Counted from the stretch's first letter, positions 4,275-20,160 are shown. The stretch is 32,000 nt of DNA from Propionibacterium ruminifibrarum (GCF_900289195.1 NZ_OMOH01000004.1:324456-356455); one strand, 5' to 3'. Translations and numbers: made by a program. Notes: generated by a model not told the origin, from the letters alone.

Positions 4275-4494
4275 GCAGCGATTCTTGCACCCGGCACCGA
4301 CCGGCCCGAGCCCCGTCCATCGACCCGGCGCCCACGACCGGCCGGAGCCCGGCCGTCTCACCACAACGGCCAGGACCCTCGCCTCGAAATGTCCCAATCC
4401 CCATGACCGGGGACCACCAAGACCGGTAGGTTCGGAACATCACCCCAGACCGGTCACCCCGGACGACCCGTCTCCATGGAAGGAGATCGACCTC

Positions 4495-5580
4495 GTGAGC
4501 GCACCCCAGCCGCCGGGCACCGGCCTGCCCGCCGCCCCGAAACCCGCCGGGCGACGTCCCGTGAACCAGCGGCTCATCGTCGGCATCGTCATCGCCCTCG
4601 CCCTCGCGATGGTCGCCGCCGGCATCGTGACCAGCTGGGTGCGCGACCGCGGGACGCTGGGGAAGGCCCGGGAGGTCGTCGAGGACTACCTGACCGCCGT
4701 CGCCGAGGGGGACGCGGACCGGGCCCGCAGCCATCTGGACACCTCTCGCAACTATTCCGGGGACGACTCCCTGCTCACCGACGAGGTGCTCCGGGCCTCG
4801 AAGGAACGCGCGCCGATGAGCGGCATCGACGTCGGCGAGGCCACCAAGGATCAGGACCGATCGGCCACCTATCACGTGCCGGTCTCCTACACCGTCGGCG
4901 AGGACACGGTGTCCACCACCGTCGAGGTGCAGGTCATCAGCTCCCCCGACGATCCCGTGGTCATCAGCCTCACGCGTCTGAGGCTGGACCAGTACAGGGG
5001 TGCCGAGGTCACGGTCAACGGCGTCACCGCGCGCAGCAACGCCCCGGCCGTCTTCCCCGGCAGCTACACGGTGGCGCCCGCCAGCGAGTACCTCGAGATC
5101 GTCCGCGGCGACGTCGCGGCAACCGACGTCGCCAAGGAGGACTACACCCCGTCGAAGGAGAGCCATCTGGCCGTCTCCGAAGCAGGCGTGGAACTGTTCC
5201 GCGACAAGGTCGTCGCCGAGGCCGAGAGGTGCCTGGCCTCCACCAGGCTCGACCCGGGCTGCGGCGCCGTGATGCCCCAGCACCCGGACCCGGCCCTCTA
5301 CTTCAAGTGCGCCGAGGTCAGGGAGGGCTCGGTCCACCGCTGGCAGGAGCCCGAGGAGGCCGCCAGGCTGCACTCGGTGACACCCGAACCCAAGATCGGG
5401 TCACCGACCGTCATCAGGGCAGATGGTGACCAGCTCGGCCGCATCAGGCTCACCGCCACCTGCCGCCAGGGCGACACCTGGAGCGAACGTGAAATGGACC
5501 GGTACGACCCGGGCACCCGGTTCGGTTCCCCGTCCCTCGACCTGACCGATCCGGACCGGAAGATCATGTGGACCACCTGA
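4495..5580 (+). CDS. Uncharacterised single-pass membrane protein, tandem-paralog family, copy 1
   Basis: Frame of ORF 3799..5580, trimmed to the GTG at 4495. GGAAGGAG at 4478-4485 lies 9 nt upstream. The product then begins VSAPQPPG, like the MS(T/A)PQxPG starts of the paralogs. It has a short Pro-rich tail, one hydrophobic helix (LIVGIVIALALAMVAAGIV) and an ectodomain with all family blocks: YLTAVAEGDA, SLLTDEVL, VNGV..VFPGSY, YLEI, VSEAG..FR.KVVAEA..CLASTRLDPGCG, SVHRWQEPEEAA, TATCRQGDTW, FGSPSLDLTDPD. Confidence 0.8.
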   Translation: MSAPQPPGTGLPAAPKPAGRRPVNQRLIVGIVIALALAMVAAGIVTSWVRDRGTLGKAREVVEDYLTAVAEGDADRARSHLDTSRNYSGDDSLLTDEVLRASKERAPMSGIDVGEATKDQDRSATYHVPVSYTVGEDTVSTTVEVQVISSPDDPVVISLTRLRLDQYRGAEVTVNGVTARSNAPAVFPGSYTVAPASEYLEIVRGDVAATDVAKEDYTPSKESHLAVSEAGVELFRDKVVAEAERCLASTRLDPGCGAVMPQHPDPALYFKCAEVREGSVHRWQEPEEAARLHSVTPEPKIGSPTVIRADGDQLGRIRLTATCRQGDTWSEREMDRYDPGTRFGSPSLDLTDPDRKIMWTT

Positions 5581-5647
5581 CCCGCCGGCACGCCCTGTCC
5601 GGGCCGGCCCGTTCGTCCGGCTCGCCCCGACCAGGAAGGATCATTCC

Positions 5648-6871
5648 ATGAGCACACCCCAGCCACCGGTCCACGGCGCACCGGGCCCGTTCCCGATGGG
5701 CGGCCAGGCCCCCCAGAACGCGTGGCCCGGCCAGGCCCCCCAGAACGCGTGGCCCGGCCAGGGCCCCTATGCGGGGGCCTGGCCCACGCCGGGCGGCACG
5801 CCCGCTCCGACGGGTCGCACCACTCGACCAAGGAGGACCCGGGCAGTCATCATCATCGGCGCGGTCGTGCTGGCGCTGATCATCGGCGCCGCCCTGACGC
5901 GCACCGCCCTGGGTGGCTCCGACGAGGACCTGTCCAGGAAGATCGTCGAGGAGTACCTCACCGCGGTCGCCGAGGGAGACGCCGACAAGGCCAAGGGCTT
6001 CCTGTCCTACTCCTCCGCTGACGAGTCCCTGCTCACCGACGAGGTGCTCCGCGTCTCGAACGAGCTCGCCCCGATGACGAACATCACCGTCGGCAGTGTC
6101 ACAGCGAGCAGCGAACACGCCAACGACTACCTGGTGCAGGCCTCCTATGACATCGGGGACGAATCCGTCTCGACCACCATGACGGTGTTCATCACCAGCA
6201 GGAGGTCACTCCTGCCCAGCAAGAAAATCGTGACCATCACGGACCACACAAGACTGTCACTGAGTTTGTTCGAAGACGTCGACTTCACGGTCAATGGCGT
6301 CACTCCCGACACGGACTATCCCGACGTCTTCCCCGGCACCTATGAGTTGGCGGTGAGCAACGAGTACCTCGAGATCACCGGCGACCCCATCGCGGCCCTC
6401 GACCCGGCCGGGAACGCCTATTCCCCCTTCGACACGGGTCCCGACGGGCGGCGCGAGAAGAACACCGTGGGCGTCTCCGAGGCCGGCGTGCAGATGTTCC
6501 GCGAGAAGGTCGTCGCCGAGGCCACCGAATGCCTGGCCTCCACCAGGCTCAGTCCCGGCTGCGGCACCTGGGTGCCGCAACGCCCGGACAGAGAGTTACG
6601 ATGCGAAGAGGTCCGCGAGGACTCGGTCCACCGCTGGCAGGAGCCCGAGGAGGCCGCCAAGCTGCAAAATGTCACGCCCGTCCACAGGCTCGGTCCGCCG
6701 ACAACCCTCGAGGCCGTTTCCACCCAACTCGGCGACATCGAGGTCACCGCCACCTGCCGCCAGGGCGACACCTGGACCGAACAGCGACTGTACAGCTATG
6801 AGGCCACCTATTTCGGCACCGCCTCCATCGACCTGACCGACCCGGACCTCGCGGTCGTCTGGGGCCGCTGA
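5648..6871 (+). CDS. Uncharacterised single-pass membrane protein, tandem-paralog family, copy 2
   Basis: ORF-track entry of 407 aa. The product starts MSTPQPPV and has a Pro/Gly/Gln/Trp-rich tail with a duplicated GQAPQNAWP. The predicted helix is AVIIIGAVVLALIIGAAL, followed by the conserved ectodomain blocks. AGGAAGGA lies upstream of the ATG. Confidence 0.85.
   Translation: MSTPQPPVHGAPGPFPMGGQAPQNAWPGQAPQNAWPGQGPYAGAWPTPGGTPAPTGRTTRPRRTRAVIIIGAVVLALIIGAALTRTALGGSDEDLSRKIVEEYLTAVAEGDADKAKGFLSYSSADESLLTDEVLRVSNELAPMTNITVGSVTASSEHANDYLVQASYDIGDESVSTTMTVFITSRRSLLPSKKIVTITDHTRLSLSLFEDVDFTVNGVTPDTDYPDVFPGTYELAVSNEYLEITGDPIAALDPAGNAYSPFDTGPDGRREKNTVGVSEAGVQMFREKVVAEATECLASTRLSPGCGTWVPQRPDRELRCEEVREDSVHRWQEPEEAAKLQNVTPVHRLGPPTTLEAVSTQLGDIEVTATCRQGDTWTEQRLYSYEATYFGTASIDLTDPDLAVVWGR
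5702..5755 (+). repeat. Perfect 27-nt in-frame tandem duplication (ggccaggccccccagaacgcgtggccc x2) inside the copy-2 tail
   Basis: 5702-5728 and 5729-5755 are identical, followed by a partial third unit (ggccagggcccc). Each unit encodes GQAPQNAWP. Confidence 0.95.
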
Positions 6872-6981
6872 GCACGCCGGCACGGCCCACGTGCGACCCG
6901 GGCGCCGCCCGCACGGTTCATGACACGCCCGGCCGGCGACCGCGCGCCTGGGATGATGGTGCCGCGGAGAGGAGCACGCCC

Positions 6982-8202
6982 ATGAGCACACCCCAGCACC
7001 CCGGCGACGGCGACGCCGGGCAGCCGGCCGACTGGGCGAGCCGGCCGGCCAGGCCCGCCGACGGCTGGTGGCCGAGCCCAGCGGCGGCCGGCCCGGGCCA
7101 CGAACCCACGGCCGCAGCACCTGCGTCCGTGCAGGGCGCCGTCACCGGGCGGGCGGGGCGCCCGGCTCTCGCCGTGGCGTCCACCGGCGGATCGAGGGCG
7201 ACGGTCGTCATCGTCGCCGCGGTCCTCCTGGCCATGCTCATCGCCGCCGTCACGCTGAGCACCGCCGTGAACTCGAACGAGGGCCGCGCCAGGCGGATCG
7301 TCAGGGAGTACCTCACCGCGGTCGCCGAGGGGGACGCCGAGAAGGCGCGCGGCTACCTGAGCGAGGTCGACGACGACTCCCTGCTCACCGGCGAGGTGCT
7401 CCGCGTCTCGAACGAGCTCGCCCCGATGACCGACATCTCCGTCGGCAGGGTGAGGCACTCGCGCTACATCAGCACGGACTACCAGGTGCGGGTCTCCTAC
7501 CGGATCGGAGACGAGACGGTCTCGACCATCATGGATGTGTCCCTCCCCCGCCAGAACTCGTCCACCGCGGTCAAGAGCGCCGGTGTCGCCAGCCTCTCCT
7601 CGCTGTGGCTGACCGGGTTCGGCGACATCGACGTCACGGTCAACGGCGTCATCCCCGACACGAACAGACCGGCCGTCTTCCCCGGCAACTACAAGATCGC
7701 GGCGAGCAACGAGTACCTCGAGATCACCGGCGACCCCATCGCCGCCACCGACCCGTCCGAGCACAGTTACTCCGCCGCTGCCGCCGGCAATGAGTTGGCC
7801 GTCTCCGAGGCCGGCGTGCAGATGTTCCGCGACAAAGTCATCGCCGCCGCCCGGGAATGCCTGGCCTCCACCAAACTCAGCCCCGGCTGCGGCACCAAAG
7901 TGCCCCAGTACCCGAACAACAATCCACGGTGCGAGGAGGTCCGTGAGGACTCCGTCCACCGTCGGCAGGAACCCGAGGAGGCAGCCAAACTGGAGTCGTT
8001 CACGCCCAAGCTCAAGGCCGGGGCCCCGATGACCATCACGGCCGGCCCCACCGATCTCGGCTACTTCACGCCCACCGCCACCTGCCGCACGGGCGACACC
8101 TGGACCGAGCAGCAGTTGTACGGCCCCACCGAGGCCACTCGTTTCAGCGCCCCGTCCATCGACCTGACCGACCCCGACCTCGCGCTCGCCTGGGAGGGCT
8201 GA
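6982..8202 (+). CDS. Uncharacterised single-pass membrane protein, tandem-paralog family, copy 3
   Basis: ORF-track entry of 406 aa. The product starts MSTPQHPG. The tail contains DWASRPARPADGWWP and the predicted helix is VVIVAAVLLAMLIAAVTL. The conserved ectodomain blocks are present. GGAGAGGAG lies upstream. Confidence 0.85.
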   Translation: MSTPQHPGDGDAGQPADWASRPARPADGWWPSPAAAGPGHEPTAAAPASVQGAVTGRAGRPALAVASTGGSRATVVIVAAVLLAMLIAAVTLSTAVNSNEGRARRIVREYLTAVAEGDAEKARGYLSEVDDDSLLTGEVLRVSNELAPMTDISVGRVRHSRYISTDYQVRVSYRIGDETVSTIMDVSLPRQNSSTAVKSAGVASLSSLWLTGFGDIDVTVNGVIPDTNRPAVFPGNYKIAASNEYLEITGDPIAATDPSEHSYSAAAAGNELAVSEAGVQMFRDKVIAAARECLASTKLSPGCGTKVPQYPNNNPRCEEVREDSVHRRQEPEEAAKLESFTPKLKAGAPMTITAGPTDLGYFTPTATCRTGDTWTEQQLYGPTEATRFSAPSIDLTDPDLALAWEG

Positions 8203-8210
8203 GTACCGCC

Positions 8211-9242
8211 ATGAGACCGCACACCACCCCGAACACCACGAAGCGCACGGCCGTCGTCGCTACCGTCCTCCTGTCCCTGGTCATCGGTGTCGCGCTGGCG
8301 ACCGCCATCTGGCACCGGGCCGCCATCGGGCACCGGGACGGGCAGGCGGCCAGGGAGACGGTCGGGGCCTATCTCACCGCCGTCGCCGAGGGAGACGCCG
8401 AAACGGCCCGCGGCTATCTGGGCGAGGTCGACGACGACTCCCTGCTCACCGACGAGGTACTCGAGGAATCCCGTGCGCGCGCCCCCATGACCGACATCAC
8501 CGTCGGCCGCGCCACCAAGAACTGGCTCGAAGACGGCGTCTACGACGTGCAGGTCGCCTACACCCTCGGGGAGGAGGTCTCCACCGTCATGCGAGTGGAG
8601 ACCGCCGGTGGCCTGGTCATCACCAGCGTGTCCTGGTTGTGGCTGGCCGAGTTCACCGACGTCGACTTCACGGTCAATGGCGCCATCCCCGCCACCGATG
8701 AACCGAACGTCTTCCCCGGCAGCTATCTGCTGGAGGCCAGCAACGAGTACCTCGAGATCGCCGGCGAGCCCATCGCGGCCACGGACACGAGCATCGCGCC
8801 CTACGGCCCCTCTGTGGAGAACGAGCTGGTCGTCTCCGAGGCCGGCATCCAGATGTTCCGCGGCAAGGTCGTCGCCGAGGCCACCGAATGCCTGGCCTCC
8901 ACCAGGCTCGACCCCGGCTGCGGAATCCACGCGATACCCCAGTACCCCGACTCGGTACCCGAATGTGAGGAGATCGGTGAGGACTCCGTCCAACGCCACC
9001 TGGACGCCGGCCAGGCAGCCCGGCTCGAAACGGTGACCCCCGAACCCGACCATTGGGAGCCGACCATCATCAAGGTCCTGTTCACCGAGCTCGGCCGCTT
9101 CACCGTCACCGTCAGTTGCCGCACCGGCGACACCTGGAGCAGCCGCGAGATCGCCGACTACAGCCAGATCCGGGGCCTCTTCTTCGGTTCCCCGTCCATC
9201 GACCTGACCGACCCCGATCTCGCGGTCGTCTGGGACAGATGA
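8211..9242 (+). CDS. Uncharacterised single-pass membrane protein, tandem-paralog family, copy 4 (lacks the Pro-rich tail)
   Basis: ORF-track entry of 343 aa. The ATG lies only 8 nt after the copy-3 stop. About 12 residues precede the helix AVVATVLLSLVIGVALATAI. The ectodomain blocks are conserved (YLTAVAEGDAETARGYL, VSEAGIQMFRGKVVAEATECLASTRLDPGCG, FGSPSIDLTDPDLAVVW). Confidence 0.85.
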   Translation: MRPHTTPNTTKRTAVVATVLLSLVIGVALATAIWHRAAIGHRDGQAARETVGAYLTAVAEGDAETARGYLGEVDDDSLLTDEVLEESRARAPMTDITVGRATKNWLEDGVYDVQVAYTLGEEVSTVMRVETAGGLVITSVSWLWLAEFTDVDFTVNGAIPATDEPNVFPGSYLLEASNEYLEIAGEPIAATDTSIAPYGPSVENELVVSEAGIQMFRGKVVAEATECLASTRLDPGCGIHAIPQYPDSVPECEEIGEDSVQRHLDAGQAARLETVTPEPDHWEPTIIKVLFTELGRFTVTVSCRTGDTWSSREIADYSQIRGLFFGSPSIDLTDPDLAVVWDR

Positions 9243-9361
9243 CCCGCCACACCGACACGGGCCGCCGCGACCACCTGGGGCACACCCCCTGTTCCGACGC
9301 AGTCCGCTCTGGCGAGGCGGCCCTGTCCCTGCCATGATGGCCCGCAGGAGAGGACCCCACC

Positions 9362-10507
9362 ATGAGCGCACCCCGGCAGTCCGGCGCAGACGGCGCCGGA
9401 GCGGCCCACGACTGGGCGAGCCGACCGGCCCGGCCCTCCGACGGCTGGCGGCCGGGACAGACCCCGCACACCGGGGTACCCGCCCCGGCGGGCCCGGCCG
9501 GCACGCCGCAGCCCGCGCAACTCATCGCCATCGGCGCGCTCGTCCTCACCCTGCTCATCGGCGCCATGACGGCAGCAATCGTCGCGGACCGCTCCGCCCT
9601 GCGGACCGCGGAACGGGCCGCCCAGGAGGCCGCCCGGACCTATCTCACCGCCATCGCCGAGGGGGACGCCGAGACGGCCCGCGGCTACCTGGAGGTCGAC
9701 GACGACTCCCTGCTCACCGACGAGGTGCTCCGGGTCTCGAACGAGCTCGCCCCGATGACCGACATCACCGTCGGCGAGGTGACCAGGGACAGACGTATCG
9801 TCACCCACCAGTGGGTGCGTGTCGGCTACCGCGTCGGTGGCGTGGAGGTCTCCGCCCTGTTGAGCGTGAGTCGCTCCGATGATCCGACCATCTTCAACGC
9901 CTCCGAGCTGTCGCTGCACGGGTCCCCCGACGTCGGTATCACGGTCAACGGCGCCATCCCCGCCACCAGCTCGCCGACCGTCTTCCCCGGCACCTACGAG
10001 CTGGCGTCCAACAACGAGTACCTCGACGTCACCGGAGAGCCCATCGCCGCCATCGACCCGACCGAGTACTTCTACGATTCCCTCGGCACGGAGAACGAGG
10101 TGGTGGCCTCCGAGGCCGGCGTGCGCATGTTCCGCGAAAAAGTCGTCGCCGCAGCCCAGGAGTGCCTGGCCTCCACCAGACTCGACGCCGGCTGCGGCAT
10201 CGACGTGCCCCGGTACCCGGAGGGCCTCTCGGAGTGCGAGGAGATCCGGGAGGATTCCGTCCACCGCAGGCAGGACTCCAGCCAGGCGGTCCTGCTCGAA
10301 ACGGTGACCCCCCGCTTCAAACCCTTCGAACCGAACGCCCTCTGGGCTCCCTTCATCGACCTCGGCCGCGTCGACATCACCGTCACCTGCCGCGTGGGCG
10401 ACACCTGGACCAATCGTGAGATCACCAGTCACGGCAGGTGGCGCTTCTTCGGTTCCCCGTCCATCGACCTGACCGACCCCGACCTCGCGGTCGCCTGGAA
10501 CGCCTGA
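9362..10507 (+). CDS. Uncharacterised single-pass membrane protein, tandem-paralog family, copy 5
   Basis: ORF-track entry of 381 aa. The product starts MSAPRQSG. The tail contains DWASRPARPSDGWRP and the predicted helix is LIAIGALVLTLLIGAMTAAIV. The conserved ectodomain blocks are present. CAGGAGAGGA lies upstream. Confidence 0.85.
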   Translation: MSAPRQSGADGAGAAHDWASRPARPSDGWRPGQTPHTGVPAPAGPAGTPQPAQLIAIGALVLTLLIGAMTAAIVADRSALRTAERAAQEAARTYLTAIAEGDAETARGYLEVDDDSLLTDEVLRVSNELAPMTDITVGEVTRDRRIVTHQWVRVGYRVGGVEVSALLSVSRSDDPTIFNASELSLHGSPDVGITVNGAIPATSSPTVFPGTYELASNNEYLDVTGEPIAAIDPTEYFYDSLGTENEVVASEAGVRMFREKVVAAAQECLASTRLDAGCGIDVPRYPEGLSECEEIREDSVHRRQDSSQAVLLETVTPRFKPFEPNALWAPFIDLGRVDITVTCRVGDTWTNREITSHGRWRFFGSPSIDLTDPDLAVAWNA

Positions 10508-10737
10508 CCCCACCAGCACCGACCCGGCTCACCGAGGGCGGGCTTCATGGCCGGCCCTCTGAGATGCCGGGGACGTGCGGCGCCGACGCATGCGGCCGAT
10601 CAGCGCCGTCGGCGGCCTGTTCAGCGCGAGACAATCAGGGCATAGTAGGGGTCATCACCCATGAACACCCTATTCATGGCATGGCCAGAACCAGGGGATC
10701 CCATCGTGGACACCGCGTTCCGGACGGCGCATTCTCC

Positions 10738-10743
10738 TAGAAT
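10738..10743 (+). promoter_or_regulatory. Candidate -10 hexamer (TAGAAT) for copy 6
   Basis: TAGAAT fits the actinobacterial TANNNT -10 pattern. It lies 30 nt upstream of the 10774 ATG, with GGAGAGGA in between. It sits in a lower-GC 266-nt spacer, the only long gap in the array. No convincing -35 was seen. Confidence 0.3.
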
Positions 10744-10773
10744 GGCTATCCCACAGGAGAGGACCAACCCCCT

Positions 10774-12162
10774 ATGAGCACACCTCAGCAGCCGGGCGCA
10801 GGCGGCGCCGGGCAGAACAACTGGGCGAACCAGCCCTCCCAGCCGAACAGCGGCTGGCAACCCGGCCAGGGCGCCCCGAGCCAGAACCCCATGGGAAACC
10901 AGGGCGCCCCGAATCCGAACGCGCCGTGGCAGCAGCAGCCGCAACAGGGATACCGGCCCCAGCAGGGATACGGGCAGCCGGCGACGCAGCCGCAGCCCAC
11001 CGCCTTCACCGCCCAGGGCCCCACGCAGCCCAACCCGGCACAGCAGCCCCAGCAGGGCGCCTGGCCGGGCCAGCCCAACGCCTACCCTGGGCAGCCCAAC
11101 GCCTACCCGGGGCAGACCGCGTACGCGGGTGCACCGGCCGGCCCCGCGGGTTCCCCGCCCAAGTCGAACTCCAAGAAACTGGTCATCATCATCGGCGCGA
11201 TCGTCCTTGCGCTGATCATCGCCAGCGTGCTGGCCTTCGCCCTCCTCCGGGGCGGTTCGAAGGAACGGAAGGCCAAGCAGGCCGTCCAGGGCTACATCAC
11301 CGCCATCTCCGAGGGCGACGCCAACAAGGCCAAGGGGTACCTTTCCGACTCGCTGAGCGACACGTCCCTGCTCACCAACGACGTGCTCAAGGATTCCAAC
11401 GAGCGTGCACCGATCACGGACATCGCCGTCGAGGACGCACAGCAGGTCACCGGCTCCGACATCGAGTACCTGGTCCCCGTCAGCTACACCATCGACGACA
11501 CGGCCACCCGAACCTCGCTCGTGGTTTCCTTCTACAGCAACAACGATCCCGTCGTGGAGGCGCCCTCCACCCTGCCGCTGAGCCTGCTCGAGGATGTTGA
11601 GATCCAGGTCAACGGGGTCACGCCGGACAGCGATTCGCCGTACGTCTTCCCCGGGAGCTACAACGTCACCACCGACAACAAGTACCTGACGATCGAGGAC
11701 GGCGAGATCGAGGCCTACAGCCCCGAAGAACTCATTCTCGACATCCCTGATGTCGCGGTCTCCGAGGCAGGCAAGCAGATGTTCCGCGAGAAGGTCGTCG
11801 CCGCGGCCACCGAGTGCCTGGCCTCCAACCGGCTCGACTCCGGCTGCGGAGAACCGCTCCCGGCCACCTGGGAGACCGGCGAGACCCTCGACGAGGGCAC
11901 CGTCAAGCGTTCGCAGAACGCCGCGGAGGCCGCCAAGCTGCAGTCGGTGTCCCCCTCTCTCGGCCTCAAGGGACCGACCATCCTCTCGGCGTCCTACGCC
12001 GACCTCGGCACCATCGACACCACGGTCGGCTGCAGCAAGGACGGTCAGCACGGCGAGTGCAGCGTGCACAAGACCCTCTTCGGGGTGGAAACGGGCTGGT
12101 ACTTCGGGTCCCCGTACATCGACGTGACCGACCCGGACCTCGTGGTCAAGTGGGAGGACTGA
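10774..12162 (+). CDS. Uncharacterised single-pass membrane protein, tandem-paralog family, copy 6 (most divergent, longest Gln/Pro-rich tail)
   Basis: ORF-track entry of 462 aa. The product starts MSTPQQPG. It has a roughly 135-aa Q/P/G/N-rich tail with NNWANQPSQPNSGWQP and GQPNAYP repeats, and the predicted helix LVIIIGAIVLALIIASVLAFAL. The ectodomain keeps YITAISEGDA, SLLTNDVL, VNGVTPDSDSPYVFPGSY, VSEAGKQMFREKVVAAATECLASNRLDSGCG and FGSPYIDVTDPDLVVKW. Confidence 0.85.
   Translation: MSTPQQPGAGGAGQNNWANQPSQPNSGWQPGQGAPSQNPMGNQGAPNPNAPWQQQPQQGYRPQQGYGQPATQPQPTAFTAQGPTQPNPAQQPQQGAWPGQPNAYPGQPNAYPGQTAYAGAPAGPAGSPPKSNSKKLVIIIGAIVLALIIASVLAFALLRGGSKERKAKQAVQGYITAISEGDANKAKGYLSDSLSDTSLLTNDVLKDSNERAPITDIAVEDAQQVTGSDIEYLVPVSYTIDDTATRTSLVVSFYSNNDPVVEAPSTLPLSLLEDVEIQVNGVTPDSDSPYVFPGSYNVTTDNKYLTIEDGEIEAYSPEELILDIPDVAVSEAGKQMFREKVVAAATECLASNRLDSGCGEPLPATWETGETLDEGTVKRSQNAAEAAKLQSVSPSLGLKGPTILSASYADLGTIDTTVGCSKDGQHGECSVHKTLFGVETGWYFGSPYIDVTDPDLVVKWED
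11068..11130 (+). repeat. 21-nt in-frame tandem repeat (GQPNAYP, GQPNAYP, GQTAYAG) in the copy-6 tail
   Basis: 11068-11088 is ggccagcccaacgcctaccct and 11089-11109 is gggcagcccaacgcctacccg. A degenerate third unit spans 11110-11130. Confidence 0.9.
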
Positions 12163-17886: not shown

Positions 17887-20160
17887 TCAGCGCGTCGGCC
17901 GGAAGCCGCGCAGGCGCAGGCTGTTCGTCACGACGAAGACCGAGCTGAACGCCATGGCGGCACCGGCGATCATCGGGTTGAGCAGGCCTGCCGCGGCGAT
18001 CGGGATGGCGCACACGTTGTAGAAGAAGGCCCAGAACAGGTTGCCGTGGATGGTGCGCAGCGTGGCGCGCGAGAGGTCGATGGCGTCGACGGCGAGCATG
18101 AGGTCGTGGCGCATGAGCGTCAGGTCACTGGCCGCGATGGCAGCGTCGGTGCCGGTGCCCATGGCGATGCCGAGCTCGGCGGCGGCCAGGGCGGCGGCGT
18201 CGTTCACGCCGTCACCGATCATGGCGACCCGGTGGCCCTTCTCGCGCAGGTCGGTGATGACGGACAGCTTCTGCTCGGGCAGCACCTGGGCGTGCACCTC
18301 ATCGATGCCCACCTGGGAGGCCACGTGGCCGGCCGCCCGCTCGTTGTCGCCGGTCAGCATGACCGTGCGCAGGCCCAGCGCGTGGAGGCGCTCGACGGCT
18401 CGCGCCGAGTTGTCGGCGACCTCGTCGGAGACGGCGATGACCCCGCGGACGGCGCCCGACCAGGCGACGAAGACGACCGTCGCCCCCTGAGCTGAGGCGG
18501 TGTCGGCGGCCTCGGTGAGCGGGCCGGGGATCGGCAGGGCCTGCTCCTCCATGAGGGCCGTGTTGCCCGCGAAGGCCGTCCTGCCCTCGAGATCGGCCTG
18601 TACGCCGCGGCCCGGGATGATGCGGAAGCCGTCGGCCGGTGGCACGGCTCCCTGCTCCGCGGCCCTGGCGACGATGGCCTCGGCGATCGGGTGCTCCGAG
18701 CCGGCCTCGAGCGCCGCGGCGTTGGCGAGGACGGTGGCGTCGTCCTCGCCGTCGGCCGGCACGACCCGCTGAACGCTCATCTCGCCCCTGGTGAGGGTGC
18801 CGGTCTTGTCCATGACGACCGTGTCGATGGTCCGCGCCTGTTCCAGGGCCTCGGGGCCGCGGATGACGACACCGAGCTGGGCGCCGCGCCCGGTGCCTGC
18901 GAGCAGGGCGGTCGGGGTGGCCAGGCCGAGGGCGCAGGGACAGCTGATGATGAGCACCGAGACGCCCGCGGTGATGGCGAAACTGGCGCCTGCGCCTGCG
19001 ATGAGCCAGCCGAGCAGGGTGACGAGGGCGATACCGATGACGACCGGCACGAACACGGAGGCGATCCGGTCGGCCAGGCGTTGGGCATTGGACTTGCCGG
19101 TCTGGGCCTGTTCGACGAGGTGGGCGATCTGGGCCAGCTGGGTGTCGGCGCCCACGGCCGTGGCCCGCACGACGATGCGGCCCGTGGTGTTGAGCGTGGC
19201 GCCGACGACCCGGTCGCCCGGGCCGACCTCGACGGGAACGGACTCGCCCGTGATGACGTGGGCGTCGATGGCCGAATTGCCCTCGACGACCTCGCCGTCC
19301 GAGGCGACCTTCTCGCCGGGGCGGACGACGAAACGCCGGCCCACCGTGAGGGTCTCGATCGGCTTGGTGGTCTCGGTCCCGTCGTCGTCGAGGACGTGGA
19401 CGAGTTTGGCCCCCATCTTGAGCAGCTCACGCAGGGCCGAGCCGGCCTCGGACTTGGAACGGGCCTCGATCCAACGGCCCAGGAGGATGAAGGTGATGGT
19501 GCCGCAGGCCGCCTCGAAGTAGACGGCGTCGAGGTTGTCGGCGCGCATCAGGTGAAGGCTGAAGGGGTGCTTCATGCCGATCATTCCGGCATTGCCGAAG
19601 AGCAGGCAGTAGGCACTCCAGAAGTAGGCGGCCAGCGTGCCGACGGAGATGAGCGTGTCCATCGTGAAGGCGCCGTGCCTGAGGTTGACCCACGCGGAGT
19701 GGTGGAAGCTCCAGCCTCCCCAGAACAGTACGGGGGTGGTGAGCACGAGACTCGCCCACTGCCACCCGGGGAACTGCAGGGGGGTGATCATCGACACGAG
19801 GATGACCGGCACGGCGATGCAGGCCGAGAAGACGAGGCGGCGCCTGATCCGGTCCGCGTGCTCGCGGGCCCTGGCCTCGGTGTCCTCGGCGGGATCGGGC
19901 AGGCTGGCGTCGTAGCCGGCGGCGCGGACCACCTCGATGAGTGACTCCGTGCTGGTGCCGTAGGGGGCCAGCACGTGCGCCTTGTTCGTCGCATAGTTCA
20001 CCGCGGCCTGGACGCCGTCGACCTTGTTGAGTTTCTTCTGGATGCGCGCGGCGCAGGAGGCGCAGGTCATGCCCTGCACGTCGAGGTCGATGCTCGAGAA
20101 CTCCGGCGACGCGGTCCTGCCGGCGCCCGAGTCGGGCTCGGTTCTCACGGTGTCAGTCAT
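17887..20160 (-). CDS. copA: Copper-translocating P1B-type ATPase
   Basis: ORF 17887..20262 trimmed to the ATG at 20160, with GGGAGG upstream. It has the HMA motif GMTCASCAARIQ, the TM CPC motif CPCALGLATP, the phosphorylation site DKTGTLT and the hinge GDGVNDAAAL. Confidence 0.92.
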   Translation of the reverse strand: MTDTVRTEPDSGAGRTASPEFSSIDLDVQGMTCASCAARIQKKLNKVDGVQAAVNYATNKAHVLAPYGTSTESLIEVVRAAGYDASLPDPAEDTEARAREHADRIRRRLVFSACIAVPVILVSMITPLQFPGWQWASLVLTTPVLFWGGWSFHHSAWVNLRHGAFTMDTLISVGTLAAYFWSAYCLLFGNAGMIGMKHPFSLHLMRADNLDAVYFEAACGTITFILLGRWIEARSKSEAGSALRELLKMGAKLVHVLDDDGTETTKPIETLTVGRRFVVRPGEKVASDGEVVEGNSAIDAHVITGESVPVEVGPGDRVVGATLNTTGRIVVRATAVGADTQLAQIAHLVEQAQTGKSNAQRLADRIASVFVPVVIGIALVTLLGWLIAGAGASFAITAGVSVLIISCPCALGLATPTALLAGTGRGAQLGVVIRGPEALEQARTIDTVVMDKTGTLTRGEMSVQRVVPADGEDDATVLANAAALEAGSEHPIAEAIVARAAEQGAVPPADGFRIIPGRGVQADLEGRTAFAGNTALMEEQALPIPGPLTEAADTASAQGATVVFVAWSGAVRGVIAVSDEVADNSARAVERLHALGLRTVMLTGDNERAAGHVASQVGIDEVHAQVLPEQKLSVITDLREKGHRVAMIGDGVNDAAALAAAELGIAMGTGTDAAIAASDLTLMRHDLMLAVDAIDLSRATLRTIHGNLFWAFFYNVCAIPIAAAGLLNPMIAGAAMAFSSVFVVTNSLRLRGFRPTR

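What the first reader, a model, noticed from the sequence alone, without database searches (positions are those of the whole stretch)
4687..10492. Mosaic of near-identical nucleotide blocks between paralogs, suggesting gene conversion alongside hypervariable segments
Several blocks are identical or nearly so at the DNA level, including synonymous sites. Neighbouring segments differ in sequence and in length.

Blocks I verified by reading:
- 6026-6078 (copy 2), 7378-7430 (copy 3) and 9707-9759 (copy 5): 53 nt, with one mismatch each relative to copy 2.
- 6473-6504 and 7801-7832: 32/32.
- 6506-6550 (copy 2) and 8865-8909 (copy 4): 45/45.
- 5328-5365 (copy 1) and 6622-6659 (copy 2): 38/38.
- 5450-5482 and 6744-6776: 33/33.
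- 9179-9217 (copy 4) and 10444-10482 (copy 5): 39/39.

Partner combinations change from block to block (2=3=5, 2=4, 1=2, 4=5). That pattern is expected from patchy recombination between copies rather than simple vertical divergence.

Between the blocks lie at least five short variable stretches. They follow VST.M.V, PIAA.D, PGCG, VTP and GDTW. These could be surface loops under diversifying selection.
Basis: seen in the sequence. Interest (0 to 1): 0.62.

Follow-up and report, generated by a model that had tools for sequence, protein, structure and literature searches.

The report
Old surface-protein gene array, variable loops
Six neighbouring copies of an uncharacterised membrane-anchored surface protein in a Propionibacterium share identical DNA blocks mainly because conserved motifs are written in a very biased codon dialect, with only a little copy-to-copy gene conversion; the segments between the blocks are predicted loops, and they are also where strains of this species differ most.

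Summary
They exceed a codon-usage null: 11 exact runs of 32 nt or more against 0.14 to 1.7 expected.

Five of the six blocks are also within 1-4 nt in copies from other species, four of them in non-orthologous copies. There conserved motifs plus GC3 of 0.91 suffice. The array is old. P. australiense keeps 1:1 orthologues of c3 to c6 in the same order. Within-genome paralog identity equals cross-genome identity.

A minor conversion signal remains:
- Long runs among c3, c4 and c5: 11 within genomes against 1 across genomes.
- Paralog-shared species-specific sites: 50 against 26, p = 0.008.
- PHI p from 0.08 to below 0.001.

In this window only block 1 (6026-6078 = 7378-7430 = 9707-9759) is clearly species-specific.

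The variable stretches are real. They are enriched in predicted loops and are strain-level hot spots. Diversity is 0.010-0.073 in c1 to c5 against about 0.001-0.002 in neighbouring genes. No paralog donor for the c3-c5 patches and no reverse transcriptase were found.

Interest is moderate.

The parts
4495..5580 (+). copy 1 (c1), 361 aa, GTG start; short tail + TM helix + ectodomain
   Evidence: Orthologue in another species (P0005/L049) is its sister in the tree. Strain diversity pi = 0.013.
5648..6871 (+). copy 2 (c2), 407 aa. The window carries a singleton allele that is about 15% divergent in DNA from the allele in all other strains.
   Evidence: dS 0.18, dN 0.12; window allele 1 member, other allele 7 members; pi 0.073
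6982..8202 (+). copy 3 (c3), 406 aa; orthologue of P. australiense copy a
8211..9242 (+). copy 4 (c4), 343 aa. It has no Pro-rich tail and starts 8 nt after c3. Orthologue of P. australiense copy b. AF2 model pLDDT 88.9.
9362..10507 (+). copy 5 (c5), 381 aa; orthologue of P. australiense copy c
10774..12162 (+). copy 6 (c6), 462 aa. This is the ancestral type: it is the only type present in the single-copy species. It is identical between two strains.
6026..6078 (+). block 1 in c2 (SLLTDEVLRVSNELAPMT), the best candidate conversion tract. It equals 7378-7430 (c3) and 9707-9759 (c5).
   Evidence: c3 and c5 differ from c2 by 2 nt over the 54-nt codon frame, while their orthologues G4a and G4c differ by 10 and 7. 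The derived Leu in 'NEL' is shared only by c2, c3 and c5; 12 against 2 mismatches in a 48-nt window. Quartet P sites at 7406, 7410 and 7418.
7378..7430 (+). block 1 in c3
9707..9759 (+). block 1 in c5
6473..6550 (+). blocks 2 and 3 in c2 (VSEAGVQMFRE / KVVAEATECLASTRL). They equal 7801-7832 (c3) and 8865-8909 (c4). This motif is conserved across species.
   Evidence: P. australiense copies a, b and c are within 1-3 nt, except copy c in block 3 (5 nt). No post-speciation conversion is needed.
6622..6659 (+). block 4 in c2 (SVHRWQEPEEAA), equal to 5328-5365 in c1
   Evidence: G4a 2 mismatches; c1-like gene of another species 36/38
6744..6776 (+). block 5 in c2 (TATCRQGDTW), equal to 5450-5482 in c1
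   Evidence: other species 32/33
9179..9217 (+). block 6 in c4 (FFGSPSIDLTDPD), equal to 10444-10482 in c5
   Evidence: over the 42-nt codon frame G4c has 3 mismatches, against 2 for c5; strain L028 has a derived variant here.
7606..7705 (+). strain-hypervariable patches in c3. There are three alleles among seven strains at 7606-7634.
   Evidence: no donor in any paralog for the L028 allele (the L048 allele was not searched)
8594..8637 (+). strain-hypervariable patch in c4 (residues 128-143, after VSTVMRVE): 17 differences, +3 nt
8767..8815 (+). strain-hypervariable patch in c4 (residues 186-202, after PIAATD): 21 of 49 nt differ
9072..9088 (+). strain-hypervariable patch in c4 (residues 288-293), including a 3-nt deletion
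5700..7030 (+). divergent tract that separates the window's c2 allele from all other strains. Its ends lie near the conserved 5' ends of c2 and c3.

Best explanation
The region is an old tandem array of six full-length genes. They encode a single-pass membrane protein with four parts:
- a Pro/Gln-rich cytoplasmic tail;
- a TM helix;
- an extracellular NTF2-like domain;
- a beta-rich, four-cysteine domain with no solved counterpart.

The array evolves by birth and death, not by concerted evolution. The c6 type is ancestral, the c1-c5 clade arose from it, and the copies predate the split from P. australiense.

The nucleotide-identical blocks are the protein's conserved core motifs. With GC3 of 0.91, about 74-87% of identical residues use the identical codon whatever the relationship, so conserved motifs read as identical DNA. 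Which copies match depends on which copies still keep the consensus motif.

On top of this there is occasional short-tract (about 30-60 nt) conversion between neighbouring copies. It is clear for block 1 here and clearer still between copies b and c of P. australiense.

The stretches between the blocks are mostly predicted loops. They diverge among paralogs and are also the places where strains differ. The strain differences are clustered, in-frame multi-nucleotide patches, plus whole-gene allele replacement at c2, and they also raise dS. The c3-c5 patches tested have no donor in the genome.

Inferred: these alleles are exchanged between lineages by homologous recombination. They are kept by diversifying or frequency-dependent selection, or by relaxed constraint, on exposed loops of a cell-surface protein. 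The ligand or antagonist (phage, host, neighbour) is unknown.
For: Shown:
- Blocks verified.
- Six copies only, all in the array.
- GC3 is 0.91.
- The identical-codon fraction at same-residue columns is 0.77-0.84 among c3, c4 and c5 (0.63-0.73 in pairs with c6). Within-genome and cross-genome non-orthologous pairs are alike. Orthologues reach 0.82-0.87.
- Five of six blocks are within 1-4 nt in copies from other species, four of them in non-orthologous copies.
- Orthologue order c3-c6 = a-d.
- Quartet sites are overwhelmingly orthologue-type: 81-237 against 3-20.
- The ML tree and three segment trees never group copies by genome; orthologous pairs are sisters except c3/G4a and c5/G4c in the middle segment, which is unresolved.
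- Copy number across species is 0, 1, 4 and 6.

Minor conversion:
- Runs of 32 nt or more among c3, c4 and c5: 11 within genomes against 1 across.
- Observed against calibrated null: 11 against 1.7.
- P = 50 against X = 26, p = 0.008. The c6 control gives 16 against 21.
- PHI p = 0.083, 0.023 and below 0.001.
- Block 1 pattern.

Loops and strains:
- AF2 pLDDT is 88.9.
- 66% of variable columns are loop against 37% of core columns, p = 9e-6.
- pi is 0.0013-0.0022 in neighbouring genes (0.0026 and 0.0065 averaged over the whole upstream and downstream flanks), against 0.013, 0.073, 0.013, 0.023 and 0.010 in c1-c5.
- Strain pN is 3.8 times higher in variable than in core columns. pN/pS is 0.89 against 0.51.
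- No donors for the patches.
- At 19210-19237, strain L028 matches another species' contig 39/41. This is weak support for inter-lineage recombination, and it lies at the very end of the L028 contig.
Against: - Even cross-species non-orthologous pairs show more long identical runs than a site-independent calibrated null (15 against 6.6). This could reflect conversion before speciation rather than constraint. The two cannot be separated with these data.
- pN/pS in the loops is about 1, not above 1, so diversifying selection is not demonstrated and relaxed constraint fits equally well.
- dS between the species is near saturation, which weakens any dN/dS argument.
- Several strain sequences are metagenome assemblies.
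- Only one other multi-copy species was available as a control.
- No donor lineage for the divergent alleles was found.
- Function, surface exposure and expression are inferred. They rest on a structure model, a TM helix and weak similarity to the Rv0361 family, whose M. tuberculosis member was detected at the cell surface (PMC2891697).
Confidence: 0.6

Rival explanations
1. One reading: ongoing patchy gene conversion among the six copies is the main cause of the identical blocks, with selection keeping the loops different.
For: - Within-genome excess of long exact runs.
- P exceeds X.
- PHI p below 0.001 with ten sequences.
- Block 1.
- Strong b-c homogenisation in P. australiense, with runs of 58, 51 and 45 nt that include the cytoplasmic tail.
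- The cross-species excess over the calibrated null could be conversion that predates speciation.
Against: - Five of six listed blocks are about as close in other species' copies.
- Overall within-genome identity is not raised.
- No tree or segment tree groups copies by genome.
- PHI on the six window copies alone gives p = 0.083.
- No between-strain patch in c3-c5 is templated by a paralog; for c2, site-by-site comparison shows no consistent donor.
Confidence: 0.17
2. There is no gene conversion at all. Every identical block is conserved motif plus codon bias. The within-genome excess comes from species-specific codon or mutation bias, or from parallel selection.
For: - Codon identity is about 0.8 in every class of pair.
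- One synonymous Gly codon (VSEAG) is GGC in all six window copies but GGT or GGG in all four P. australiense copies. This looks like a lineage effect.
- The rare GAA shared by c2, c3 and c4 could be ancestral, with parallel drift to the preferred GAG elsewhere.
Against: - Quartets that include c6 show no P excess (16 against 21), although c6 shares the same genome-wide biases.
- Block 1 shares a non-synonymous derived state (R to L) with identical flanking codons in three copies.
- In P. australiense, copies b and c share a 58-nt identical run in the poorly constrained tail.
Confidence: 0.15
3. A programmed diversification system acts on the loops. Candidates are a diversity-generating retroelement, or cassette-based antigenic variation with silent donors.
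For: Strain differences come as tight multi-nucleotide, in-frame patches. One spot has three alleles.
Against: - No reverse transcriptase in the 100%-complete genome.
- No template or donor copy of any tested patch allele anywhere in the genome or the arrays.
- Substitutions are of all types, not adenine-specific.
- All six copies are full-length genes, each with its own ribosome-binding site.
Confidence: 0.03
4. Assembly artefact: paralogs were collapsed or chimerised in draft or metagenome assemblies, which created false mosaics and false strain patches.
For: Most strain sequences are MAG or metagenome contigs. Tandem paralogs are hard to assemble.
Against: - Chimeras would copy paralog sequence, yet the tested c3-c5 patch alleles match no paralog and the c2 alleles show no consistent paralog donor.
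- Independent assemblies agree base for base on the common alleles (L026 = L027, L046 about equal to L047).
- All reading frames stay open, and all indels are multiples of three.
Confidence: 0.05

Closest known systems
Rv0361 family membrane protein (NCBIfam NF051431) / DUF4878 (PF12870) NTF2-like extracellular domains
   Same: A single N-terminal TM helix is followed by an NTF2-like domain with the YLTA..GDA..A..YL start. All six copies hit NF051431 at E 3e-4 to 4e-7. Foldseek aligns the model's N-domain to the NTF2-like N-terminal domain of PBP5/PBP2a (E 4e-3) and to the DUF4878 structure 3K7C. Rv0361 was detected in the membrane and at the cell surface (PMC2891697). DUF4878 is thought to be an extracellular ligand-sensing module (PMC3924330).
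   Different: Scores are below both curated cut-offs (21-30 against 37 bits; 12.6 against 24.1 bits). The match covers only the first third or so of the ectodomain. The roughly 200-aa four-cysteine C-terminal part has no Pfam family and no PDB fold match. The tandem six-copy arrangement has not been described for Rv0361.
Birth-and-death multigene families of bacterial surface proteins with occasional conversion (for example Helicobacter pylori babA/babB/babC, mycobacterial PE/PPE and esx paralogs; from my own knowledge)
   Same: Several full-length paralogs share conserved cores and variable exposed segments. Copy number differs between species. Short conversion tracts overlie old divergence.
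   Different: The copies here are strictly tandem with preserved order and 1:1 orthologues. Conversion is much rarer. No expression-site switching is apparent.
Mosaic alleles made by inter-strain recombination at surface or target genes (for example pneumococcal pspA or pbp mosaics, Neisseria porB/opa; from my own knowledge)
   Same: Diversity is 5 to 50 times that of neighbouring genes and is confined to one locus. Divergent tracts have sharp edges and raised dS. Different strains carry divergent segments in different genes of the array.
   Different: No donor lineage has been identified. Many patches are only 20-50 nt long and sit exactly on loops. The selective agent is unknown.
Cassette-type antigenic variation (pilE/pilS, vlsE, tprK, msp2; from my own knowledge)
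   Same: It is a family of related sequences with conserved frameworks and variable segments.
   Different: There are no silent or truncated cassettes, and no single expression site. Variant patches are not templated by other copies.

Membership tests
Rv0361 family membrane protein (NF051431) | Whole-protein score at or above the curated cut-off (37 bits) | tested here: not met
   21.0-30.4 bits for the six copies. The matches cover the TM helix and the first NTF2-like part only.
DUF4878 (PF12870) | Pfam gathering score (24.1 bits) / NTF2-like fold | tested here: inconclusive
   By sequence only c6 hits, at 12.6 bits. By fold, 3K7C aligns with TM 0.50 normalised by target length, E 0.057, and PBP5 N-domains align at E 4e-3.
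Concerted-evolution (gene-conversion-homogenised) multigene family | Paralogs within a genome are closer to each other than to their orthologues in a related species | tested here: not met
   Orthologues are 80-87% identical in DNA against 59-73% for window paralogs. Within-genome identity equals cross-genome non-orthologous identity. No tree or segment tree groups copies by genome; orthologue pairs are sisters except in the unresolved middle segment.
Concerted-evolution (gene-conversion-homogenised) multigene family | Significant recombination signal and tracts between copies | tested here: inconclusive
   PHI p = 0.083 (six copies), 0.023 (c1-c5) and below 0.001 (ten sequences). A GENECONV-like run test gives global p = 0.008 for c1-c2 and 0.0015 for c2-c3, but it is confounded by clustered slow sites. 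Block 1 is species-specific.
Birth-and-death tandem gene family | Old duplicates with 1:1 orthologues across species, and copy number that differs between species | tested here: met
   c3-c6 correspond to a-d in the same order. Among nine genomes of the genus (the window's included), copy number is 6 (this genome), 4, 1, 1 and 0 in five. Tree.
Cassette-based antigenic variation | Silent or partial donor cassettes that template variation in an expressed copy | tested here: not met
   All copies are full length with a start codon and a ribosome-binding site. The tested strain-variant patches in c3-c5 have no donor in the genome or arrays.
Diversity-generating retroelement | Reverse transcriptase plus a template repeat, with adenine-specific changes | tested here: not met
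   No PF00078 match in the genome. No second copy of any patch. Changes are of all base types.
Loops under diversifying selection | dN/dS above 1 at exposed sites | tested here: inconclusive
   Between strains, pN/pS is 0.89 in variable columns (1.2-1.5 in c3 and c4) against 0.51 in core columns. There are too few alleles for site models.

The most novel reading that the evidence does not exclude
The array encodes a repertoire of surface receptors whose loops are deliberately kept diverse, for example as phage-receptor or decoy variants or as recognition modules. The loop patches (multi-allelic, in-frame, 20-50 nt, without any template in the genome) would then arise by a localised, untemplated or cross-strain diversification process not yet described for actinobacteria.
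Probability: 0.1. Interest if true: 0.8.

Novelty: new member of a known kind. Interest (0 to 1): 0.38.

Why it matters
Methodological point: in high-GC genomes, identity 'including synonymous sites' is weak evidence for gene conversion. Codon bias alone keeps about 74-87% of codons identical at conserved residues, even between species. A cross-species, non-orthologous control is needed.

Biological point: the work defines an uncharacterised actinobacterial ectodomain family. A search found 642 cluster representatives at E of 0.001 or better, and there is no Pfam model for most of the ectodomain. In one Propionibacterium lineage the family has expanded to six tandem copies. There it is the local hot spot of strain diversity, concentrated in loops of a confidently modelled fold. 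This pattern usually marks proteins that face phages, hosts or competitors. It gives a concrete set of loops to test.

Tried and rejected
- Pfam gave no hit above threshold.
- A GENECONV-like permutation on polymorphic sites was significant for c1-c2 and c2-c3. I discounted it because sites that are polymorphic only through c6 cluster in conserved motifs.
- A regex donor search timed out. It was replaced by blastn-short.
- A multi-strain MAFFT run timed out. It was replaced by pairwise projections.
- A metagenome scan with c4 found nothing. Alignment A1 was too diverse to search with. Alignment A2 found only single-copy relatives at 37% identity, so no further strains came from there.
Read-level checks of the window's singleton c2 allele and of within-sample polymorphism could not be done.
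- Foldseek on the whole model found only the NTF2-like N-domain. The C-terminal domain was not searched separately.
- The promoter and terminator scan gave nothing useful for this GC content.
- DGR was rejected. Cassette donors were rejected. Assembly chimeras were rejected because patch alleles match no paralog.

Full report
**What is there**

The window is 67-73% G+C. Positions 4495-12162 carry six tandem + strand genes:

| Copy | Coordinates | Note |
|---|---|---|
| c1 | 4495-5580 | GTG start |
| c2 | 5648-6871 | |
| c3 | 6982-8202 | |
| c4 | 8211-9242 | |
| c5 | 9362-10507 | |
| c6 | 10774-12162 | |

- Each copy except c4 has its own GGAGAGGA-type ribosome-binding site.
- These are the only copies in the 2.78 Mb genome.
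- Named homologues come from Propionibacterium australiense, P. acidifaciens and uncultured Propionibacterium, so the genus is Propionibacterium.
- Each protein has a Pro/Gln-rich N-terminal tail (nearly absent in c4, short in c1), one TM helix and an ectodomain of about 300 aa with four conserved cysteines.
- Pfam gives nothing above threshold. NCBIfam gives sub-threshold hits to the Rv0361 family over the TM helix and first domain.
- An AlphaFold2 model of c4 built on 27 sequences is confident (pLDDT 88.9, pTM 0.77).
- Foldseek aligns only its first extracellular domain. The matches are NTF2-like domains: the PBP5/PBP2a N-terminal domain at E 4e-3 and the DUF4878 structure 3K7C.
- The ectodomain family has 642 cluster representatives at E of 0.001 or better.
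- Upstream on the minus strand lie cydA and an RNase T-like gene. Downstream lie a PRK-family kinase and an FKBP gene.

**Check of the observation**

- The paralogs are only 40-58% identical in protein and 58-71% in DNA, so exact runs of 32-53 nt do stand out.
- I kept the six protein sequences and drew codons independently from the array's own usage. The expected number of exact runs of 32 nt or more in the 15 pairs is then 0.14, against 11 observed.

**Why most blocks do not need gene conversion**

Codon bias:
- GC3 of these genes is 0.91.
- At columns where two copies have the same residue, the fraction with the identical codon differs little between the classes of pair.

| Pair class | Among c3, c4, c5 | Pairs with c6 |
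|---|---|---|
| Within-genome paralog pairs | 0.77-0.83 | 0.69-0.72 |
| Cross-genome non-orthologous pairs | 0.77-0.84 | 0.63-0.73 |
| True orthologues | 0.82-0.87 | |

- Synonymous sites are thus close to an equilibrium set by codon preference. Identity 'including synonymous sites' carries little information here.

Age of the array:
- P. australiense (G004) has four copies in the same order. They are 1:1 orthologues of c3, c4, c5 and c6, at 65-75% protein identity.
- Two other species have a single c6-type copy. Five genomes of the genus have none.
- Quartet analysis gives 81-237 sites supporting the orthologue topology, against 3-20 for the paralog-by-genome topology.
- An ML tree pairs c1 with a c1-like gene of another species. 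It pairs c3 with a, c4 with b, c5 with c, and c6 with d.
- Trees for three separate segments never group copies by genome.
- Within-genome paralog identity is the same as cross-genome non-orthologous identity. For c3-c5 it is 0.718 against 0.717 and 0.688. For c4-c5 it is 0.734 against 0.736 and 0.736.

The blocks in other species:
- In blocks 2, 3, 4 and 6, non-orthologous P. australiense copies are within 1-3 nt of the window copies.
- In blocks 4 and 5, a c1-like gene of yet another species is 36/38 and 32/33 identical.
- 'Closer to a non-orthologous copy than to the orthologue' windows occur about as often across genomes as within them (control).
- The reason is that individual copies drift away from a shared consensus motif. 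This reproduces the 'changing partners' pattern without recombination.

**What remains of gene conversion**

A residue of signal does remain.

| Test | Within genomes | Control or null |
|---|---|---|
| Exact runs of 32 nt or more, c3/c4/c5 and their orthologues | 11 (4 here, 7 in P. australiense) | 1 in equally many cross-genome pairs |
| Runs of 32 nt or more, window pairs, cross-species-calibrated null | 11 | 1.7 |
| Runs of 32 nt or more, P. australiense pairs, same null | 7 | 1.1 |
| Runs of 32 nt or more, cross-genome pairs, same null | 4 (these are cross-genome pairs) | 1.6 |
| Paralog-shared species-specific sites (P) against the symmetric homoplasy pattern (X) | 50 | 26, p = 0.008 |
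| Same, quartets with c6 | 16 | 21 |

- PHI p is 0.083 for the six copies, 0.023 for c1-c5 and below 0.001 for ten sequences.
- In the window, the convincing tract is block 1. Copies c2, c3 and c5 share RVSNELAPMT with 2 or fewer nt differences. The orthologues of c3 and c5 differ by 10 and 7 nt and keep the ancestral Arg.
- In P. australiense, copies b and c share runs of 58, 51 and 45 nt, including part of the cytoplasmic tail.
- Short-tract conversion therefore occurs in this family. It touches about 1% of sites and does not shape the overall mosaic.
- Caveat: cross-species pairs also exceed the site-independent null (15 runs of 25 nt or more against 6.6). This may be stronger codon conservation inside motifs, or conversion that predates speciation. 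I cannot separate the two.

**The variable segments and the strains**

Position in the structure:
- Columns that vary among paralogs are 66% loop in the model, against 37% for core columns (Fisher p = 9e-6).
- They include the stretches after VST.M.V, PIAA.D, PGCG, VTP and GDTW.

Strain sequences:
- Seven contigs from close strains were recovered, including two complete arrays. All the complete arrays have six copies.

Diversity along the region:

| Region | pi |
|---|---|
| cydA and the cydDC-like gene upstream, RNase T-like gene, PRK, FKBP | 0.0013-0.0022 |
| c1 | 0.013 |
| c2 | 0.073 |
| c3 | 0.013 |
| c4 | 0.023 |
| c5 | 0.010 |
| c6 | 0.003 |

The c2 allele:
- The window's c2 allele is a singleton. 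Seven other contigs carry another allele, 79% identical in protein, with dS 0.18 and dN 0.12.
- The divergent tract runs from about 5700 to about 7030. It ends near the conserved 5' ends of c2 and c3.

The patches:
- In c3, c4 and c5 the differences are tight patches on the same variable segments: 7606-7705, 8594-8637, 8767-8815, 9072-9088, 9172-9191, 9858-9888 and 10436-10444.
- Indels within the coding patches are multiples of three. One spot carries three alleles.
- P. australiense copy b resembles the window's c4 allele at the four c4 patches, so the L028 versions are probably the derived ones (compare).
- Between L028's c4 patches the divergence is about 3%, against about 0.5% outside. 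This fits a single imported tract of about 600 nt from a lineage whose loops had diverged strongly.
- No tested patch allele (strain L028's, c3-c5) matches any paralog or any other place in the genome.
- The genome has no reverse transcriptase.
- Strain pN is 3.8 times higher in variable than in core columns. pN/pS is 0.89 against 0.51.
- The loops are therefore fast-evolving and tolerant or favoured for change. Positive selection is not proven.

**Mechanism I commit to**

Shown:
- The array is old and orthology is preserved.
- Codon-bias-driven nucleotide identity occurs at conserved motifs.
- A small conversion component exists.
- The variable segments are loops and strain diversity is concentrated in them.
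- Intragenomic templates are absent.

Inferred:
- The divergent alleles move between lineages by homologous recombination. One 41-nt stretch at 19210-19237 in strain L028 matches another species' contig 39/41, but it lies at the end of the L028 contig, so it is weak support.
- The alleles persist because the loops face a changing antagonist or ligand at the cell surface.

Function is unknown beyond 'membrane-anchored extracellular NTF2-like plus beta-domain protein'.

**Comparison with known systems**

The region works like a birth-and-death surface-protein family with mosaic alleles.

It fails the defining tests for:
- a concerted-evolution family;
- cassette-type antigenic variation;
- a DGR.

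It is below threshold for both Rv0361 and DUF4878 membership. Tandem paralog families with variable loops and occasional conversion are well known. The protein family is uncharacterised, but the phenomenon is a new member of a known kind.

**Verdict**

- Observation: confirmed.
- Interpretation: partly supported.
- Interest: 0.38.
- The scan's earlier notes on this stretch describe the same array, the tail-less c4 and the tail repeats. My results agree with them. They did not change my reading.

Noticed in passing
window 5701-5800 (c2 cytoplasmic tail): In-frame repeat copy-number variation between strains. The window has GQAPQNAWP twice (407 aa), most strains have it once (398 aa), and L029 has a shorter version (388 aa). 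Local pi is 0.34.
   Followed up: partly
window 8190-8250 (c3/c4 junction): c4 starts 8 nt after the c3 stop and lacks the Pro-rich tail. Its P. australiense orthologue (copy b) has a full MSTPPRPG... tail. The tail and the spacer were therefore probably deleted in this lineage, which couples c4 to c3.
   Followed up: partly
window 4305-4412 (upstream of c1): There are nine differences in about 110 nt between the window and all five other strains, in the c1 upstream non-coding region. The neighbouring RNase T-like gene has almost none. The c1 leader or promoter may also be a divergent allele in this genome.
   Followed up: no
L023 (P. australiense array), copies b and c: Copies b and c share exact runs of 58, 51, 45 and 35 nt, including the cytoplasmic tail (DGWQPGQATHTGMPATTGPAGAPSPTR). 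This is a much stronger conversion signature than anything in the window's array.
   Followed up: partly
window 6485-6487 and homologous codons in all copies: The Gly codon of VSEAG is GGC in all six window copies and in the two single-copy species. It is GGT or GGG in all four P. australiense copies. This is a lineage-wide synonymous shift at one site. Three such sites exist in one direction and none in the other.
   Followed up: partly
window 19166-19237: Strain L028 differs by 12 nt in about 70 nt here, at the very end of its contig. The last 41 nt of its version match a contig of another Propionibacterium species (L024 1087-1127) at 39/41. This could be inter-species recombination or a contig-end artefact.
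   Followed up: no
window 10536-10558 (c5-c6 spacer): A small indel-rich polymorphic patch lies inside a GC-rich inverted-repeat-like stretch in the 266-nt spacer. It may be a terminator stem that varies between strains.
   Followed up: no
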